The notes below the pieces were generated by a model. The model ran no database searches. It worked only from the letters and a program-made list of their open reading frames with translations, and had not been told where the DNA came from. Source: Patescibacteria group bacterium (lineage in GTDB: Bacteria; Patescibacteriota; Patescibacteriia; Patescibacteriales; UBA12465). From it: a stretch of DNA of 57,449 bases. Numbering within the stretch: the stretch's first letter is position 1; every line of letters starts with the position of its first letter. This document shows positions 2,461-7,343 of the stretch, piece after piece. A program made the translations under genes and the position numbers. The DNA lies in the NCBI GenBank assembly GCA_041664445.1, contig JBAYKT010000008.1:1-57449 (forward strand), in the 5' to 3' direction.

Positions 2461-3738
2461 TTATTGAACTTGGAAGGAGATGCTGTAATGAAGTTTGGAG
2501 GAAGTACCATCAACTCGGATATCATGTCCGCCCTTAATTAAAGTCGGAACTTTAATGATAGTAGCAAAACGTCCACGGCTATCAGCTTTAACGATAGTTT
2601 TCTGATCACCAAACTTAATAGTTAATTCTTCATTGGCTAAGAAGCCGCCGCCGGAAAGCGCAACCTCGGAATTGACTGCTGCTGAACTCTTGTCTAATTT
2701 TAAGAATAAGTTTTCAGTTGCGTAAGTAGTATTTTCTTGTTCGGTAGCGGAAACAGAAGCAATCTTATTTAAATTAGCATCAAGTACTAAAATATTGGAA
2801 TTGTTAAAAACGACAACTTTATCGCCATCGGCATAGACCGACTTCAGGCCCATGGCCCAGCCGGCATAGCCGCCTAGATTTCCGGTCCAAGCAAAATCTT
2901 TTTCCTTCAAATTAGAATCGAGTCTTACAACCCCAACCCCGTTAGAGAAATAAACATTATCGGTATTGTTGCTGACCGCAATATCAAAACCTTGATAATC
3001 TAAGTGCTTATAACTAGCTAATAATTTTCCGGATAAATCAAATTTCTTGGCATAGTAATCATCAACAACGTAAATATTATCGCTGGCGTCTAAAATGGCG
3101 CGGCGATTGCCCTTATCAAATTTAAAATTTAAAGGAATAGTTTTGATAATAGAACGAGATTCAACATTATAGACCTCAATTTTACTGTTAGCCTCATCAA
3201 CATTCAAATAGAAATCATCATTACCACTTAAATTATAAGGGGCTTCTTGATTTTTAAAATCGTAAGCGACGATAGTTTGTAAGTCGGAATTAAAAACTTT
3301 AACGCCTTTGGCACTAACAGTTACAATGTTGGAACCGAATTTATCAATGCGATTGTACCATTCCCAATAAGTATTGGTGTTGGTTTGGATTTCCGTTAAC
3401 TTATTATTAGCAACTTCATATTTGTAAATAGTGTAGTTGCTGACCGCGTAGACATACAAGCGGTTATTCTCGGATACTAACTTAGCATCAAAGAATTCGC
3501 CGTAGTTATTAAAACGGGCGTTGTAAGGTTTTAGCTTAGCGACTAAACCTAAGTCTTTGCCGTCAAGCTTAAATACCTCCAAACTACCAGTATTAGTAGT
3601 AGCGACATAAACTTGATTATTAAAGGCGAGTGCATCGCCAGAATAATAAGATTTTGTTTTGGTTTTTCCCGGGGTAACCAGTAAAAACGGGGAGGCAACG
3701 GTAATAACGGCTACCGCGGCAATAATCCACTTTTTCAT
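2461..3738 (-). CDS. Secreted/anchored hypothetical protein, probable beta-propeller plus C-terminal Ig-like domain
   Basis: N-terminal hydrophobic segment; repeated short beta-strand motifs; C-terminal ALSGGGFLANEELTIKF..ADSRGRFATIIKVP Ig-like pattern. Confidence 0.6.
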   Translation of the reverse strand: MKKWIIAAVAVITVASPFLLVTPGKTKTKSYYSGDALAFNNQVYVATTNTGSLEVFKLDGKDLGLVAKLKPYNARFNNYGEFFDAKLVSENNRLYVYAVSNYTIYKYEVANNKLTEIQTNTNTYWEWYNRIDKFGSNIVTVSAKGVKVFNSDLQTIVAYDFKNQEAPYNLSGNDDFYLNVDEANSKIEVYNVESRSIIKTIPLNFKFDKGNRRAILDASDNIYVVDDYYAKKFDLSGKLLASYKHLDYQGFDIAVSNNTDNVYFSNGVGVVRLDSNLKEKDFAWTGNLGGYAGWAMGLKSVYADGDKVVVFNNSNILVLDANLNKIASVSATEQENTTYATENLFLKLDKSSAAVNSEVALSGGGFLANEELTIKFGDQKTIVKADSRGRFATIIKVPTLIKGGHDIRVDGTSSKLHYSISFQVQ

Positions 3739-3778
3739 ATTTTTTAACTAATTTTAATATTAAAATTTTTATCAAGTT

Positions 3779-3807
3779 ATTATACATTTTATTTTTATAT
3801 TTGTCAA
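3779..3807 (-). promoter_or_regulatory. Sigma70 promoter for 2461..3738
   Basis: TTGACA-17-TATAAT on minus strand. Confidence 0.8.
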
Positions 3808-3838
3808 TACCTAAAAATTGGAGCCGGACAAATTGCTA

Positions 3839-3867
3839 TTGACAAATAAAAATAATTGTAGTATAGT
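3839..3867 (+). promoter_or_regulatory. Sigma70 promoter for Wzz-like gene
   Basis: TTGACA-17-TATAGT. Confidence 0.75.
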
Positions 3868-3911
3868 GAAAAGTCAATAATAAAGTGAGATAAATAAATT
3901 TATAAAATTAT

Positions 3912-4673
3912 ATGGAATTTAACGAGTTTTTAAAGCTAATTGGCCGTAAAAAACAAACTATTTTAGCTATTATGTTTGTGGCTATAGTTCTAGCTATCGG
4001 TCTTTCTTTGCTAAATCCGCTCAAATATGGCGCTAAATCTCGACTTTTAGTTTTACAAAATGCCGGTAGTGCTGATGCTTATTCACTTTCCAAGTCTAAT
4101 GAATACTTAGGTAACTTATTTGCCCAGGTTGTATATTCCAGCTCTTTCTACGATCAAGTGATTGCTTCACCTTATAGTATAAATCGTGATTATTTTGCTG
4201 GTAATTACAGCCAGCAACTTAAAAAATGGCGTGAAACTGTTTCTACCAGTACTCAGGGAGATACCGGAATTGTCGAAATTAATGTTTATCATACCAGCAC
4301 CCAAGAGGCTAAACAAATTGCTTTAGCCATTAATGATATTTTAATTAACAATAATCAGAACTATCATAGCGGTCAAAATATTAAAGTGAATATCATTGAT
4401 CAGCCTTTAGTTTCTGCTTATCCGGTTAAACCGAATATTCCTTATAACGCTGCTTTGGCTCTAGTCGCTTCTTTCTTAGTATCCTTATTCTATATCTATA
4501 TTTTTCCAGAAAGACGCAATGATTTAAATATCGTTGGTGGTCGCCACAAAAAACACGTTAAAATTAACGATATGGAAATCAGACATAATTTAGCCGAGAG
4601 AGAAGAGTTGGCTGAGCAATCACATAGCAATCATGATTTGCATGGTAATATGGGGAATGTTTTACGAAAGTAA
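3912..4673 (+). CDS. Wzz/CapA-like polysaccharide chain-length determinant
   Basis: Two TM segments flanking an extracytoplasmic domain; Y.AKSRLLV near N-terminus and PVKPN before second TM. Confidence 0.75.
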   Translation: MEFNEFLKLIGRKKQTILAIMFVAIVLAIGLSLLNPLKYGAKSRLLVLQNAGSADAYSLSKSNEYLGNLFAQVVYSSSFYDQVIASPYSINRDYFAGNYSQQLKKWRETVSTSTQGDTGIVEINVYHTSTQEAKQIALAINDILINNNQNYHSGQNIKVNIIDQPLVSAYPVKPNIPYNAALALVASFLVSLFYIYIFPERRNDLNIVGGRHKKHVKINDMEIRHNLAEREELAEQSHSNHDLHGNMGNVLRK

Positions 4674-4690
4674 ATTAAAAAGATAAAACC

Positions 4691-4811
4691 ATTCAAGATA
4701 CAGAAATAATTTTTTGTCGCTCCGGATTTTTTCTGGGGCAAAAATTAACTAACATTAATTTTTGCTCTACGAAAAAATAGTCGCTTAAAAAACTATTTCT
4801 GTATCTTGAAT
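4691..4811. repeat. 121-nt imperfect palindrome with 25-bp terminal inverted repeats
   Basis: 4691-4715 vs reverse complement of 4787-4811 match 24/25; inner stem GGGGCAAAAATTAA/TTAATTTTTGCTCT. Confidence 0.85.
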
Positions 4812-4860
4812 ACATATATATATTTCTTTAACAATTTGTTTCACTTAAAAATTCAGTATC

Positions 4861-5391
4861 ATGAAAGTAAATTTTGTCGACGCAATCGCTTGGCTTAAAG
4901 CTAAGTGGTTCACAGTGTTTTTGTTTTTGGTGATCGTAGCGCTTATCGTAATTGTGCTATTTCGCCCAGCAAACAACGGAGTTGCAACTGCAACTGATCC
5001 CAGTACATTAATTGTGCAGCCCACCACTCCCGTACCTGGAGGCAATTCAACCGGCATTAGCGCCCCCGTACCAGTTGGTACAACCACTTTCTGCATCCGT
5101 TTAGACGGGCGCGAAAATGGTCACTTACCAGCACTTATGGGTAGCGCCGCTCAAAACGCTTACGCTAATGGTCTTAACGGAAGTAACTGGTCTTTACCAG
5201 CAACATCTTCCGGATCGGAACCTTATGGCGTTATGGCTGATGGCAGAATATTTGCCAAAGTATCATTCCTGAAACAATATGGAATGTTAACTTTCGCAGA
5301 GATTAAATGCGATGCAACTGGTTGGATGGCCGAAAAAATGACAACTGCCACAATTGGCGGGGAAGAAGCACTGGTATTTCAGTTAAAATAG
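4861..5391 (+). CDS. Membrane-anchored hypothetical protein with unnamed Cys-containing domain (paralog of 6534..7289)
   Basis: N-terminal TM, Pro/Thr linker, motifs FC..DGRE, NGSNW, YGV..DG, IKC..TGWMA..MT shared with 6534..7289. Confidence 0.75.
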   Translation: MKVNFVDAIAWLKAKWFTVFLFLVIVALIVIVLFRPANNGVATATDPSTLIVQPTTPVPGGNSTGISAPVPVGTTTFCIRLDGRENGHLPALMGSAAQNAYANGLNGSNWSLPATSSGSEPYGVMADGRIFAKVSFLKQYGMLTFAEIKCDATGWMAEKMTTATIGGEEALVFQLK

Positions 5392-5423
5392 GTTATACCT
5401 ATAAGCGCTTAACTCGTCAAAAA

Positions 5424-5460
5424 GCCCTCGAACCCACCACAGTTCGGGGGTTGTTTTTTT
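5424..5460 (+). terminator. Intrinsic terminator
   Basis: CCCTCGAAC/GTTCGGGGG stem followed by T-run. Confidence 0.65.
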
Positions 5461-5477
5461 ATATATAACTTATTAAC

Positions 5478-5506
5478 TTGACAGATTTTAAAAAATAGTG
5501 TATGCT
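5478..5506 (+). promoter_or_regulatory. Sigma70 promoter for barrel-lipoprotein operon
   Basis: TTGACA-17-TATGCT. Confidence 0.7.
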
Positions 5507-5605
5507 ACCTTGATAATCTTTTGATTATTTTTATAGCTAGAATTATATATTTCCAGCTTTAAACTCTTTTAAAAACGAACATTAACAATCAAAATTAAAT
5601 AAGCA

Positions 5606-6493
5606 ATGAGAAAAACTCTTTTTTTATTGGCCTTGATGACCTTAGTGGTTGTCGGCTCGGCTTTCGCGCAATTTCGCGAACGTGTAAATTTATCTTTATT
5701 TGCTGGTGGCTACGCCGCTCAACAGAACGCCAATAACCGCGGTTATTGGTATGGCGCGTATATCGATTACATGCCAATTAAAACCGAAACTGGTTGGTTG
5801 CTTGGTTTTTGTGCGGTCGGTGATCGCGTCTACTTCAAAAGCAACACAACTTTGTCGCGTTACGATGGGAGTAGCGATGAAATGGGGATTGGACTTGCCG
5901 GTGGAAAATGGTCAGAATTTTTGACTCAAAAGTATTCCGGCTACTTCGGTGCTAATTTGATGCTCAAAAGCGTCAGAGACAATGGCACCGGCAAAAGTGT
6001 CCAACCCAACAAAGAACTCGGTGTCTATGACATGCGCCAAGAAGATTTAATCCTATCTGGAGAACTTAACATTAATTTGTTAAAAGCTTTCGGGATTAGA
6101 GAAAATCTTTTACCACGCTCACAACTGAAGTTGACCTATCAAAAACCTATTAAATCAGAGAAGACTTCCTTCTGGAACGAAACTCCGATTAAAGAATCCA
6201 TGATTTGGAACAAAGCGGCTTTCGGTCTTGAACTGAAGCAGAGCATTGTGCAAATCGGGAGGGGGAACACTTTAGTGGAACCCAAAATTATGATTGGTTA
6301 TCATCACTATGTCGGTGATGACAGTCGGTGGCTGTCTGCAGGCCCAGAAATTGCGCTTAAAAAACGCGGTTGGGATGACTTTTTATCAATCTACTGTTTT
6401 TGGAAACAGCAGACTGGTGATTTTGAGCCCAACTTAAACAGTGGGCAAATCGTGCTTGGCGTAAATGTTATGCCATTCAATATCAGAAGATAA
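5606..6493 (+). CDS. Secreted protein, predicted outer-membrane-type beta-barrel
   Basis: Signal peptide ending SAFA-Q; about 12 amphipathic alternating strands; C-terminal IVLGVNVMPF. Confidence 0.55.
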   Translation: MRKTLFLLALMTLVVVGSAFAQFRERVNLSLFAGGYAAQQNANNRGYWYGAYIDYMPIKTETGWLLGFCAVGDRVYFKSNTTLSRYDGSSDEMGIGLAGGKWSEFLTQKYSGYFGANLMLKSVRDNGTGKSVQPNKELGVYDMRQEDLILSGELNINLLKAFGIRENLLPRSQLKLTYQKPIKSEKTSFWNETPIKESMIWNKAAFGLELKQSIVQIGRGNTLVEPKIMIGYHHYVGDDSRWLSAGPEIALKKRGWDDFLSIYCFWKQQTGDFEPNLNSGQIVLGVNVMPFNIRR

Positions 6494-6533
6494 GAAAAAT
6501 AAATTTGTTGAACCATAAAAAAAATCGTTGAAA

Positions 6534-7289
6534 ATGAAAAAAATTATCTTTATTTCGATGCTGGCCTTAAGTTTAGGCCTTGTAACAAGTTGTAACATTT
6601 TTGGTGACAAAAAAACCGCAACTAAAGTTGTCGCTGATCCTTGCCCGGAAAAATCTGGACAAATTATTTCTCTACAAGCCGAAGTCATCAGATTACAAGA
6701 ACAAATTGGTGATTTAAAAGCCGAAAACGCTAAATTAACAGCCGACTTACAGTGTTGTGAAAGTAAATTACCAGCCGCTAAGAAAACAACCTACACGGCT
6801 AAAAAAACAACCACGCAAACCACTCAAAAAGTCACAACTCCGGTTGTAACTAAATCAGCGACTATTCCCGCTGCTACTGCTCCTACTGACACTAAATTTG
6901 TCAGCAATGCGGTTGGCGGTACAGCTAATTTAGATTACCTCAGGGAAGGTAAAGACATCATTTTTTGCGCACAAGCCAATAACCGGGAAGATTGTTATTT
7001 CCCGCATTATGCTATGCAGCATGGCGTGATGTTTTCCAAGGCTCCGGAAGACAATGAAATCAAAGGGTACAACTGGAGAGTTGAGCCCACTGAATTCTAT
7101 GACGGCGATTACGGCGTCACAGTTGACGGAACCTTCTACGTTTCCGACAATTTGATTCAACAATCCATGAAAGCCGGTGGCTTATCCTTTGAAGCTCCGC
7201 TTCGCATTAAATGTCCATATACTTCATGGATGGCGAAGGACATGACCTTATCGGACGGCTACTGGACTCTCAAGACTCAAAGAAAATAG
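6534..7289 (+). CDS. Lipoprotein with coiled coil, Thr/Lys linker and unnamed C-terminal domain
   Basis: Lipobox LVTSC; heptad segment LQAEVIRLQEQIGDLKAENAKL; C-domain aligns with 4861..5391; start moved to MKKIIF. Confidence 0.75.
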   Translation: MKKIIFISMLALSLGLVTSCNIFGDKKTATKVVADPCPEKSGQIISLQAEVIRLQEQIGDLKAENAKLTADLQCCESKLPAAKKTTYTAKKTTTQTTQKVTTPVVTKSATIPAATAPTDTKFVSNAVGGTANLDYLREGKDIIFCAQANNREDCYFPHYAMQHGVMFSKAPEDNEIKGYNWRVEPTEFYDGDYGVTVDGTFYVSDNLIQQSMKAGGLSFEAPLRIKCPYTSWMAKDMTLSDGYWTLKTQRK

Positions 7290-7310: not shown

Positions 7311-7343
7311 GCCCCTGGGATTATTTATTCCGGGGGCTTTTTT
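7311..7343 (+). terminator. Intrinsic terminator
   Basis: GCCCCTGGGA/TTCCGGGGGC stem plus T-run. Confidence 0.7.

What the first reader, a model, noticed from the sequence alone, without database searches (positions are those of the whole stretch)
4861..7289. Unnamed extracellular domain present in two differently anchored paralogs
The C-terminal domains of 4861..5391 (TM anchor) and 6534..7289 (lipoprotein) align motif by motif: FC...[DN][GN]RE....P, [NK]G[SY]NW....T, YGV..DG, L[TS]F, IKC..T.WMA..MT. Two invariant Cys suggest a disulfide. I do not recognise the family. The two genes flank the predicted beta-barrel gene.
Basis: seen in the sequence. Interest (0 to 1): 0.65.

Follow-up and report, generated by a model that had tools for sequence, protein, structure and literature searches.

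The report
Unnamed, circularly permuted envelope domain
Two membrane-tethered proteins of an ultra-small groundwater bacterium (Candidatus Falkowbacteria) share a real, previously unnamed 115-residue outward-facing domain whose predicted fold matches no solved structure. The domain also exists in a circularly permuted form and travels with an outer-membrane-style barrel inside the cell's surface-sugar gene cluster.

Summary
The C-terminal ~115 residues of ORF 4861-5391 (membrane-helix anchor) and ORF 6534-7289 (lipoprotein) are homologous: BLASTP E 6e-11, and profile-profile 98.6%.

No Pfam, NCBIfam, PHROG, PADLOC or PDB-sequence match exists. A confident AlphaFold model (pLDDT 90.6) has no Foldseek match in PDB or BFVD.

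The family is small, about 160 clusters among 1.84 billion representatives. In Patescibacteria it was found only in the window's own order.

New points:
- The second cysteine is not a family trait; both cysteines occur in 10 of 118 representatives, so the disulfide idea fails at family level.
- The domain exists in two circularly permuted topologies.
- The window holds a third, permuted paralog at 15493-15981.
- Permuted copies also occur in type IX secretion cargo, fused to fn3, BACON and M23 peptidase domains.
- The lipoprotein is co-transcribed with a 12-stranded outer-membrane-type barrel, always adjacent to it, in a variable cassette just downstream of a Wzz-like gene.
- Sister genomes carry, at the same position, a divergent barrel plus a stalked protein with the permuted domain; the two versions never occur together.

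The function is inferred, not shown. I read it as a stalk-displayed binding module for a surface glycan or partner that works with the barrel.

The parts
3912..4673 (+). Wzz-like (chain-length-determinant type) two-helix membrane protein. It is the conserved left neighbour of the cassette.
   Evidence: Weak Pfam hits to Wzz (E 1.8e-4) and GNVR (E 1.6e-3), both below the gathering scores. Present in 156 of 201 genomes of the order. Always immediately upstream of the barrel cassette.
4670..4832 (.). Nested inverted repeat (palindrome) in the spacer between the Wzz-like gene and the first paralog.
   Evidence: Outer arms 4670-4715 / 4787-4832 are 78% complementary; inner arms 4727-4748 / 4755-4776 are 82% complementary. 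Its role was not tested.
4861..5391 (+). Paralog A (P0001, 176 aa): N-terminal signal-anchor helix (residues 16-34), a Pro/Thr/Gly-rich spacer, then the domain in standard topology (nt 5047-5385).
   Evidence: E 1.6e-36 to the family profile. 14 homologs. Present upstream of the barrel in 15 of the 19 related loci compared (L004-L013, L015-L018; in L014 that position is off the contig, and L019, L024 and L027 lack it).
5423..5452 (+). Terminator-like hairpin plus T-run after paralog A.
   Evidence: Consensus scan only.
5478..5506 (+). Promoter-like site (TTGACA-17-TATGCT) ahead of the barrel gene.
   Evidence: Consensus scan only.
5606..6493 (+). Signal-peptide protein (P0003, 295 aa) predicted to be a 12-stranded outer-membrane-type beta-barrel.
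   Evidence: AlphaFold2 pLDDT 86.1, pTM 0.78. Foldseek against PDB: autotransporter beta-domains on top (9oqa E 5.8e-9; BrkA 3qq2, target-normalised TM 0.60). 46 homologs, no Pfam family.
6534..7289 (+). Paralog B (P0002, 251 aa): lipoprotein (Cys20, nt 6591-6593), Cys-flanked coiled-coil-like segment (~residues 36-80), Thr/Lys/Pro-rich spacer (~81-127), then the domain in standard topology (nt 6918-7280).
   Evidence: 47 homologs; E 1.8e-56; model pLDDT 90.6. The lipobox Cys is at least 90% conserved. Lgt and LspA are present in the genome. The coiled coil is inferred from the heptad-like sequence and from weak hits to coiled-coil families.
7311..7337 (+). Terminator-like hairpin plus T-run after paralog B. 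It would close a two-gene barrel+B transcription unit.
   Evidence: Consensus scan. The barrel-to-B spacer is about 40 nt.
15493..15981 (+). Third paralog (P0065, 162 aa): N-terminal membrane helix plus a divergent copy of the domain in circularly permuted topology (nt ~15640-15960). It lacks both cysteines.
   Evidence: A profile built only from 19 foreign permuted domains hits it as one continuous match (profile positions 5-104, E 5.7e-9 over all 7613 six-frame ORFs of the genome). The standard profile hits only its first half (E 1.4e-3).

Best explanation
This is a genuine, so far unnamed extracytoplasmic domain of about 115 residues. Its predicted secondary structure is seven strands and two helices. 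Its family-wide core residues, numbered by profile position, are C18, P30, G50, N52, G66, G71, W104 and M109.

In this Falkowbacteria genome the cytoplasmic membrane displays the domain on flexible stalks in three ways:
- by a lipid anchor plus a coiled-coil-like stalk (B, 6534-7289);
- by a signal-anchor helix (A, 4861-5391);
- in circularly permuted form, by another helix anchor (15493-15981).

B is the core partner of a 12-stranded outer-membrane-type barrel. The two genes appear to form one transcription unit, are always adjacent, and diverge together. They form a variable cassette inserted directly after the Wzz-like gene of the conserved surface-glycan locus (glycosyltransferase family 4 (GT4), Wzy, WecG).

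My best reading is that the domain is a non-catalytic binding module held some distance from the membrane. It would recognise either the glycopolymer made by the locus (or another cell-surface polymer) or a partner surface, and B would work with the barrel as a two-part envelope device.

Shown: homology, family limits, lack of known relatives, both topologies, the anchors, gene linkage and gene neighbourhood.

Inferred: binding function, ligand, contact with the barrel, and location relative to the wall.
For: Real domain:
- BLASTP E 6e-11; profile-profile 98.6%.
- 160 representative clusters at E<=1e-3.
- AlphaFold2 pLDDT 90.6, pTM 0.86.

Unnamed and no known fold:
- No Pfam, NCBIfam, PHROG or PADLOC hit.
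- No PDB sequence hit with either profile.
- Foldseek best E 1.0 in PDB and 1.4 in BFVD, with TM at most 0.36.

Extracytoplasmic:
- Among standard-topology clusters, 78 have a helix anchor or signal peptide and 32 have a lipobox.
- Lgt and LspA are present in this genome.
- Distant members carry the type IX secretion sorting domain.

Behaves like a binding module:
- It occurs as a single small secreted protein, as tandem repeats (P0163, P0182), and fused to fn3 arrays, BACON and an M23 peptidoglycan peptidase.
- The conserved residues are Gly, Pro and aromatic or polar (N52, W104, Y/F), with no conserved acid/base set.

Glycan-locus context in three different arrangements.

Link to the barrel:
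- 14 of 15 domain-positive genomes have the barrel, against 5 of 186 others (p 1e-16).
- The barrel-then-B order is adjacent in all 13 genomes where both lie on one contig.
- A shared promoter-like and terminator-like frame brackets the pair.

Co-divergence:
- Sister genomes have, at the same position, a ~26%-identical barrel plus a stalked protein with the permuted domain. This alignment reaches 95-96% profile-profile probability and is colinear only with the permuted order.
- The two versions are mutually exclusive across 25 genomes.
Against: - There is no experimental data of any kind.
- No similarity to any known carbohydrate- or wall-binding fold.
- One Cys is 87% conserved without a partner, which could point to chemistry rather than binding.
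- The genome lacks BamA/Omp85, and this phylum is regarded as single-membraned (bioRxiv 10.1101/2021.05.31.446380), so where the barrel sits is unknown.
- The domain also occurs without any barrel (third paralog; locus L028; type IX secretion cargo), so barrel contact cannot be its general role.
- AlphaFold DB was not available, so 'no known fold' covers solved structures and viral models only.
- Foldseek depends on sequence order and could miss a permuted relative.
- Promoter and terminator calls are consensus matches only.
Confidence: 0.45

Rival explanations
1. The domain is mainly a protein-protein partner of the barrel. The stalked lipoprotein would dock on, plug or gate the 12-stranded barrel, as LptE does for LptD or RcsF for OmpA. 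Paralog A would be a second ligand for the same barrel. Binding of glycan or other surfaces would be secondary or absent.
For: - Barrel and B are strictly adjacent and apparently co-transcribed.
- Barrel and domain diverge together into two mutually exclusive types, while flanking genes stay 40-50% identical.
- Paralog A was found beside the barrel only in genomes carrying the standard-topology (type I) cassette.
Against: - The domain is found without any barrel: the third paralog at 15493-15981; locus L028, where a permuted copy sits between a Wzz-like gene and GHL15/Wzy genes; and type IX secretion cargo proteins.
- Tandem repeats and fusion to enzymes are typical of ligand-binding modules.
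- No complex model could be computed here.
Confidence: 0.25
2. The domain is a variable surface adhesin or receptor of this probably host-dependent (episymbiotic) bacterium. It would contact the partner cell, or be targeted by phages, and is therefore exchanged as a cassette. The barrel would be delivered to, or interact with, the partner's membrane.
For: - There are at least three cassette types at one site within a single genus.
- Barrel and B diverge much faster than their flanks.
- The long stalk could span a wall.
- No BamA is present for self-insertion of the barrel.
- An inverted repeat lies at the cassette border.
- The idea was also raised by an earlier first-stage note.
Against: - There is no evidence of the organism's lifestyle or host in these data.
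- The cassette is embedded in, and oriented with, a housekeeping-like glycan locus.
- The domain core is well conserved (P30, G50, N52, G66 and W104 are each kept in 94% or more of clusters), which is not what a purely hypervariable tip would show.
- No diversifying-selection test was run.
Confidence: 0.15
3. The domain is a small enzyme that uses the conserved Cys as a nucleophile, for example a transpeptidase- or hydrolase-like activity on the wall or glycopolymer.
For: - A lone Cys is kept in 103 of 118 clusters and in the foreign permuted forms, without a disulfide partner.
- A His or Tyr lies ten residues downstream at profile position 28 (His in 63% of clusters).
- The genes sit in a polymer-assembly locus.
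Against: - The Cys lies in the middle of a hydrophobic beta-strand (IIFCAQA) in the model's secondary structure, which looks like core packing.
- It is replaced by Y or N in the third-paralog subfamily, by A, W or S in the sister-genome permuted type, and by T, A or I in some clusters.
- No other polar residue is invariant.
- No match to any hydrolase or transferase fold.
Confidence: 0.08

Closest known systems
Lipoprotein plus beta-barrel pairs of double-membraned envelopes (LptE/LptD, RcsF/OmpA, PelC/PelB, AlgK/AlgE)
   Same: A lipoprotein gene lies next to, and is apparently co-transcribed with, an outer-membrane-type barrel. The pair sits beside polysaccharide-assembly genes (a Wzz-like gene and GT4, glycosyltransferase family 4, genes), as in the Pel and alginate export modules.
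   Different: - No sequence or fold similarity of the lipoprotein domain to LptE, RcsF, PelC or AlgK.
- The host genome has no BamA and belongs to a phylum regarded as single-membraned.
- The barrel has only 12 strands and most resembles autotransporter beta-domains.
- The lipoprotein carries a long coiled-coil and linker stalk.
Accessory binding modules of secreted and cell-surface proteins (BACON, fn3, SH3b, LysM, carbohydrate-binding modules)
   Same: It is a small, autonomous extracytoplasmic module. It is found alone, in tandem, and fused to enzymes (M23 peptidase) and to type IX secretion sorting domains. The conserved residues are aromatic or polar.
   Different: No match to any of these families by sequence or fold. 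The ligand is unknown. A single conserved Cys is unusual for such modules.
Braun's lipoprotein (Lpp) and other stalked envelope lipoproteins
   Same: N-terminal lipid anchor followed by a coiled-coil-like rod that would set a distance from the membrane.
   Different: Lpp has no globular head and is linked to peptidoglycan through a conserved C-terminal Lys. Here the C-terminus varies (…TQRK, …TQR, …TQ) and a 115-residue head domain is present.
Classical circular permutants (concanavalin A versus favin, swaposins; recalled from general knowledge)
   Same: The same domain occurs with its N- and C-terminal halves in swapped order. Tandem-repeat members exist (P0163, P0182), which is the usual intermediate for the duplication-then-trimming route.
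   Different: Here both topologies occur within one bacterial genus at the same gene position, and also within one genome.

Membership tests
Any curated protein family (Pfam-A, NCBIfam, PHROGs, PADLOC) | Profile match at or near the curated threshold | tested here: not met
   No hit on the domain in P0001, P0002, P0065 or in 16 distant members. The only hits are sub-threshold coiled-coil or membrane-helix noise.
Any solved structure (PDB) or viral predicted structure (BFVD) | Sequence-profile or fold similarity | tested here: not met
   Profile searches of PDB sequences gave 0 hits (standard-topology profile) and nothing better than E 0.66 (permuted profile). Foldseek best E was 1.0 (PDB) and 1.4 (BFVD), TM at most 0.36.
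Bacterial lipoprotein (Lgt/LspA substrate), for paralog B | Signal peptide ending in a lipobox [LVI][ASTVI][GAS]C | tested here: met
   The sequence …GLVTS-C20 fits. The Cys is at least 90% conserved among 22 aligned homologs.
Bacterial lipoprotein (Lgt/LspA substrate), for paralog B | The genome encodes the Lgt and LspA maturation enzymes | tested here: met
   PF01790 at C13:28714-29472 (E 1.1e-67) and PF01252 at C13:5409-5810 (E 2.5e-23), both above the curated cut-offs.
   The first Cys is present in 103 of 118 clusters. Both Cys occur together in only 10 of 118, and the second position is A (31), T (20), S (17) or G (11) in most of the others. The second Cys is absent in the permuted forms, and both are absent in the P0065 subfamily.
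One domain family in two circular permutations | The two halves match the same profile in swapped order within single-domain proteins, and reciprocally | tested here: met
   At least 20 clusters show profile positions ~60-119 followed by ~12-59, including 131-148 aa secreted proteins with one copy. The reciprocal permuted profile hits P0002 and P0001 in split, swapped order and hits P0065 colinearly at E 5.7e-9.
Outer-membrane beta-barrel (Omp85-assembled), for the neighbouring gene 5606-6493 | Closed antiparallel transmembrane-type barrel after a signal peptide | tested here: met
   AlphaFold2 gives 12 long strands at pLDDT 86.1. Foldseek gives probability 1.00 to autotransporter, NalP and OmpG-type barrels.
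Outer-membrane beta-barrel (Omp85-assembled), for the neighbouring gene 5606-6493 | BamA/Omp85 insertase present in the genome | tested here: not met
   PF01103 is absent from the 92%-complete genome. The control search found it in 7 of 14 named control genomes, all of them double-membraned species (E. coli, Caulobacter, Synechococcus, Thermus, Deinococcus, Bacteroides, Thermotoga).
Type IX secretion cargo | C-terminal Por_Secre_tail sorting domain | tested here: not met
   Absent from all three window proteins. Present only in distant permuted members P0136, P0163, P0169, P0180, P0182 and P0185.
Braun lipoprotein-like wall tether | Conserved C-terminal Lys for peptidoglycan linkage | tested here: not met
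   C-termini vary among homologs (…QRK, …QRR, …TQR, …TQ, …RTR).

The most novel reading that the evidence does not exclude
A clade of Falkowbacteria-like, supposedly single-membraned bacteria builds a two-part surface device from a self-inserting outer-membrane-type barrel and a stalked head domain of a new fold. The device would be exchanged as cassettes, including a circularly permuted version, at one site of the surface-glycan locus. The head domain would set specificity for the partner cell or its glycan, and the barrel would sit either in an unrecognised outer lipid layer of the bacterium or in the partner's membrane.
Probability: 0.15. Interest if true: 0.85.

Novelty: new variant of a known kind. 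Interest (0 to 1): 0.62.

Why it matters
Most proteins of these ultra-small bacteria have no assigned function, and their envelope is poorly understood. This finding offers four things.

- It defines a compact, confidently modelled domain family with no solved relative, which is a candidate new fold and a ready target for structure determination.
- It is a clean natural case of circular permutation. Both topologies sit at the same gene position in closely related genomes, which is useful for studying how permutations arise and are tolerated.
- The domain's tight coupling to an outer-membrane-type barrel, in a genome without BamA, makes the question of what lies outside the cytoplasmic membrane of these cells testable. 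There are now two defined proteins to localise.
- The cassette variability suggests a surface specificity determinant, possibly relevant to host or phage recognition.

Tried and rejected
- Pfam, NCBIfam, PHROGs and PADLOC scans of all three paralogs, the barrel and 16 distant members gave nothing on the domain.
- PDB sequence searches with both profiles gave nothing. LolA at E 0.66 is chance level.
- Foldseek against PDB and BFVD gave nothing for the domain.
- The N-terminal ~210 aa domain of the type IX secretion relatives, searched against PDB, gave nothing significant.
- Link between the third paralog and the M23 peptidase next to it (14096-15328), prompted by the M23 fusion in P0182: rejected as a conserved association, because its three homologs have unrelated neighbours.
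- Disulfide: rejected at family level.
- First attempt at search for related loci with the mixed alignment failed for lack of a conserved stretch. It was redone with B-only sequences.
- Names for the distant members: none on record.
- Literature searches found no description of this domain or of a barrel in this phylum.
Full report
**1. Observation**

The window holds ORF 4861-5391 (+, 176 aa, P0001) and ORF 6534-7289 (+, 251 aa, P0002). They flank ORF 5606-6493 (+, 295 aa, P0003).
- P0001 starts with a 19-residue hydrophobic helix (residues 16-34) preceded by two lysines, which makes it a signal anchor.
- P0002 starts with a signal peptide ending in the lipobox VTS-C20.
- BLASTP aligns the two C-terminal regions at 32% identity over 97 columns, E 6e-11 for the single comparison.
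- Profiles built separately from relatives of each gene align at 98.6% probability, E 1.3e-15.

**2. Organism and family size**

Named homologs and earlier notes place the genome in Candidatus Falkowbacteria (Patescibacteria). The assembly is 0.97 Mb and 92% complete.
- P0002 has 47 homologs and P0001 has 14; all named ones come from Patescibacteria.
- I trimmed 45 C-terminal domains into alignment A1.
- A profile search of 1.84 billion representative proteins found 160 clusters at E<=1e-3 and 90 at E<=1e-10. This is a small family.

Sampling whole genomes with A1 gave these counts, each including the window's own genome:

| Sample | Genomes with the domain |
|---|---|
| Phylum | 1 of 401 |
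| Class | 2 of 301 |
| Order | 15 of 201, almost all in the window's own genus and family |

**3. Is the domain known?**

No.
- There is no Pfam, NCBIfam, PHROG or PADLOC match on the domain in any paralog or in 16 distant members.
- There is no PDB sequence match with either profile.
- AlphaFold2 on A1 gives a confident model: pLDDT 90.6, pTM 0.86. Its elements in order are strand, short helix, three strands, helix, three strands.
- Foldseek finds nothing better than E 1.0 in PDB or 1.4 in BFVD, with TM-scores at most 0.36.

Two limits apply. AlphaFold DB was not available, and Foldseek depends on sequence order.

**4. Conservation and the disulfide idea**

I aligned 118 representative clusters of standard topology to the profile. 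Conservation by profile position:

| Position | Share conserved |
|---|---|
| P30 | 99% |
| G50 | 97% |
| G66 | 96% |
| N52 | 95% |
| W104 | 94% |
| G71 | 92% |
| C18 | 87% |
| M109 | 81% |

- The second cysteine (the 'IKC' motif) accompanies the first in only 10 of 118 clusters. Elsewhere it is A, T, S or G.
- It is absent from the permuted forms, and both cysteines are absent from the third paralog's subfamily.
- The 'two invariant Cys, hence disulfide' reading therefore holds at most for this lineage.
- The single conserved Cys sits inside a hydrophobic strand (IIFCAQA).

**5. Circular permutation**

In at least 20 clusters the profile matches in two pieces in swapped order: positions ~60-119 first, then ~12-59.
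- These include 131-148 aa secreted proteins with exactly one copy, so this is true permutation and not a repeat artefact.
- Tandem-repeat members exist (P0163, P0182). They are the expected intermediate.
- Several permuted members end in the type IX secretion sorting domain and carry fn3 arrays (P0136) or BACON plus an M23 peptidase (P0182). The domain therefore also serves as a module of secreted surface proteins in bacteria with type IX secretion.

**6. A third paralog in the window**

A profile built only from 19 foreign permuted domains hits ORF 15493-15981 (P0065, 162 aa, helix-anchored) as one continuous match, at E 5.7e-9 over all 7613 six-frame ORFs of the genome.
- The same profile hits P0002 and P0001 in split, swapped order.
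- P0065 aligns with its own sparse homologs and with the foreign permuted domains over the whole length.
- The M23 peptidase gene next to it is not a conserved neighbour.

**7. Gene context**

The two-gene transcription unit proposed here rests on consensus scans only.
- A terminator-like hairpin (5423-5452) follows A.
- A promoter-like site (5478-5506) precedes the barrel.
- The barrel-to-B spacer is about 40 nt.
- A terminator-like hairpin (7311-7337) follows B.

Across 16 related loci the gene order is fixed:

GT4 – GT4 – 425-aa anchored protein (minus strand) – Wzz-like – A – barrel – B – GT4 – lipoprotein(s) – CorA (minus strand) – WecG

In the order-level sample:
- 14 of 15 domain-positive genomes also have the barrel, against 5 of 186 others (Fisher p 1.3e-16).
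- The barrel-then-B order is adjacent in all 13 genomes where both lie on one contig.
- A is found beside the barrel in only five of these genomes, and on a separate contig in a sixth (G436).
- Two of the 'barrel-only' genomes have the barrel at a contig end.

Other arrangements also occur:
- In locus L027 a small secreted standard-topology copy sits between the barrel and B.
- In L028 a permuted small copy sits between a Wzz-like gene and GHL15, Wzy and GT4 genes, with no barrel.

**8. The barrel**

- AlphaFold2 gives 12 long antiparallel strands after a signal helix (pLDDT 86.1).
- Foldseek matches outer-membrane barrels, with autotransporter beta-domains first (E 5.8e-9; TM up to 0.60, normalised to the target).
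- The genome has Lgt and LspA but no Omp85/BamA.
- The phylum is treated as single-membraned in the literature (bioRxiv 10.1101/2021.05.31.446380).
- An earlier follow-up on another genome reached the same view of the barrel and lipoprotein pair.

**9. A variable cassette with two topologies**

The Wzz-like gene is present in 156 of 201 genomes of the order. The locus backbone is therefore common, and the barrel/B unit is an insert directly downstream of it.

In genomes of the same family that lack the standard domain, the same position holds two genes:
- a divergent barrel, about 26% identical, with profile E-values of 1e-7 to 1e-14;
- a 220-350 aa helix-anchored stalked protein.

The C-terminal domain of that stalked protein aligns colinearly with the permuted topology:
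- 95.1% probability (E 3e-8) against the foreign permuted profile;
- 95.8% (E 7.4e-9) against the P0065 alignment;
- only its first half aligns to the standard profile.

This version occurs in 10 of 201 genomes. None of them overlaps the 15 standard-type genomes, and both types occur within the window's own genus. Two further genomes of the genus carry a third, unrelated cassette.

Between the two types, flanking genes stay 40-50% identical while the barrel drops to ~26% and the stalked protein becomes undetectable by BLAST. The pair therefore diverges together and faster than its surroundings.

**10. Interpretation**

*Firmly shown:*
- This is a real, unnamed extracytoplasmic domain family with two topologies.
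- There are three differently built copies in this window.
- B is tightly coupled to an outer-membrane-type barrel inside a surface-glycan locus.

*Inferred:*
- The domain is a non-catalytic binding module held on a stalk. This rests on its use alone, in tandem, and fused to enzymes and sorting signals; on its conserved aromatic and polar residues; and on its glycan-locus context.
- B works with the barrel. This rests on linkage and co-divergence.

*Rivals:*
- a dedicated barrel plug or partner;
- a variable adhesin or receptor;
- a Cys-dependent enzyme.

None of these can be settled without complex prediction, a permutation-aware fold search against AlphaFold DB, and biochemistry.

**11. Novelty and score**

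I found no description of the family in curated libraries or in the searchable literature.
- I rate it a new variant of a known kind. The known kind is stalked envelope modules and lipoprotein-barrel pairs. The new features are a fold with no solved relative, a circular-permutation polymorphism at one gene position, and a setting in a phylum regarded as single-membraned.
- Interest is 0.62. The domain alone is a solid uncharacterised family. The permutation and the barrel coupling make it more than that.

Noticed in passing
window 14096-15328 (+): Signal-anchored protein with a ~250-residue coiled-coil region and a C-terminal M23 peptidase-like end (…HLHFEVR…), immediately upstream of the third paralog. 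The adjacency is not conserved in relatives.
   Followed up: partly
window 4670-4832: Nested inverted repeat in the spacer between the Wzz-like gene and paralog A (outer arms 46 nt at 78%, inner arms 22 nt at 82%). It lies at the left border of the variable cassette. I did not test whether it recurs at cassette borders in other genomes.
   Followed up: partly
L030 (G483) 2918-3913 and L031 (G440) 2836-3804: In two genomes of the same genus, the slot after the Wzz-like gene holds a 322-331 aa signal-peptide protein with no match to the barrel profile. It is followed by unrelated lipoproteins, making a third cassette type at this site.
   Followed up: no
L023 2763-3365 (G355): A 200-aa signal-peptide protein carries only the 'GEYGITKDGMFFMSERYL' half-motif of the domain followed by a C-terminal membrane helix. 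It may be a half-domain or a very divergent member.
   Followed up: no
L025 6001-7184 and L026 483-1666: The relative P0164 is followed by a separate 48-aa ORF matching the type IX secretion sorting domain. Its sorting signal therefore appears split from the body by a stop or frameshift, in two independent metagenomes. The neighbourhood looks like a defence island (methylase, ResIII, Abi_2, DndD).
   Followed up: no
L009-L012, L014, L015 (records titled 'uncultured Gammaproteobacteria bacterium') and L013 ('Marivirga sp.'): These public records carry the full Patescibacteria-type locus (425-aa protein, Wzz-like, A, barrel, B, GT4, CorA, WecG) at 50-75% identity to the window. Their organism labels are probably placeholders or binning errors.
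   Followed up: partly
window 2461-3738 (-): A 425-aa anchored protein with no Pfam family is conserved at 38-94% identity next to the Wzz-like gene in every related locus examined. It looks repeat-rich and beta-propeller-like, with a C-terminal Ig-like end.
   Followed up: no
L036 (G491) 4277-5110: One genome has a barrel homolog (E 8e-37) between the GT4 and WecG genes, with no stalked-domain gene beside it. It is the only clear barrel-without-partner case seen.
   Followed up: no
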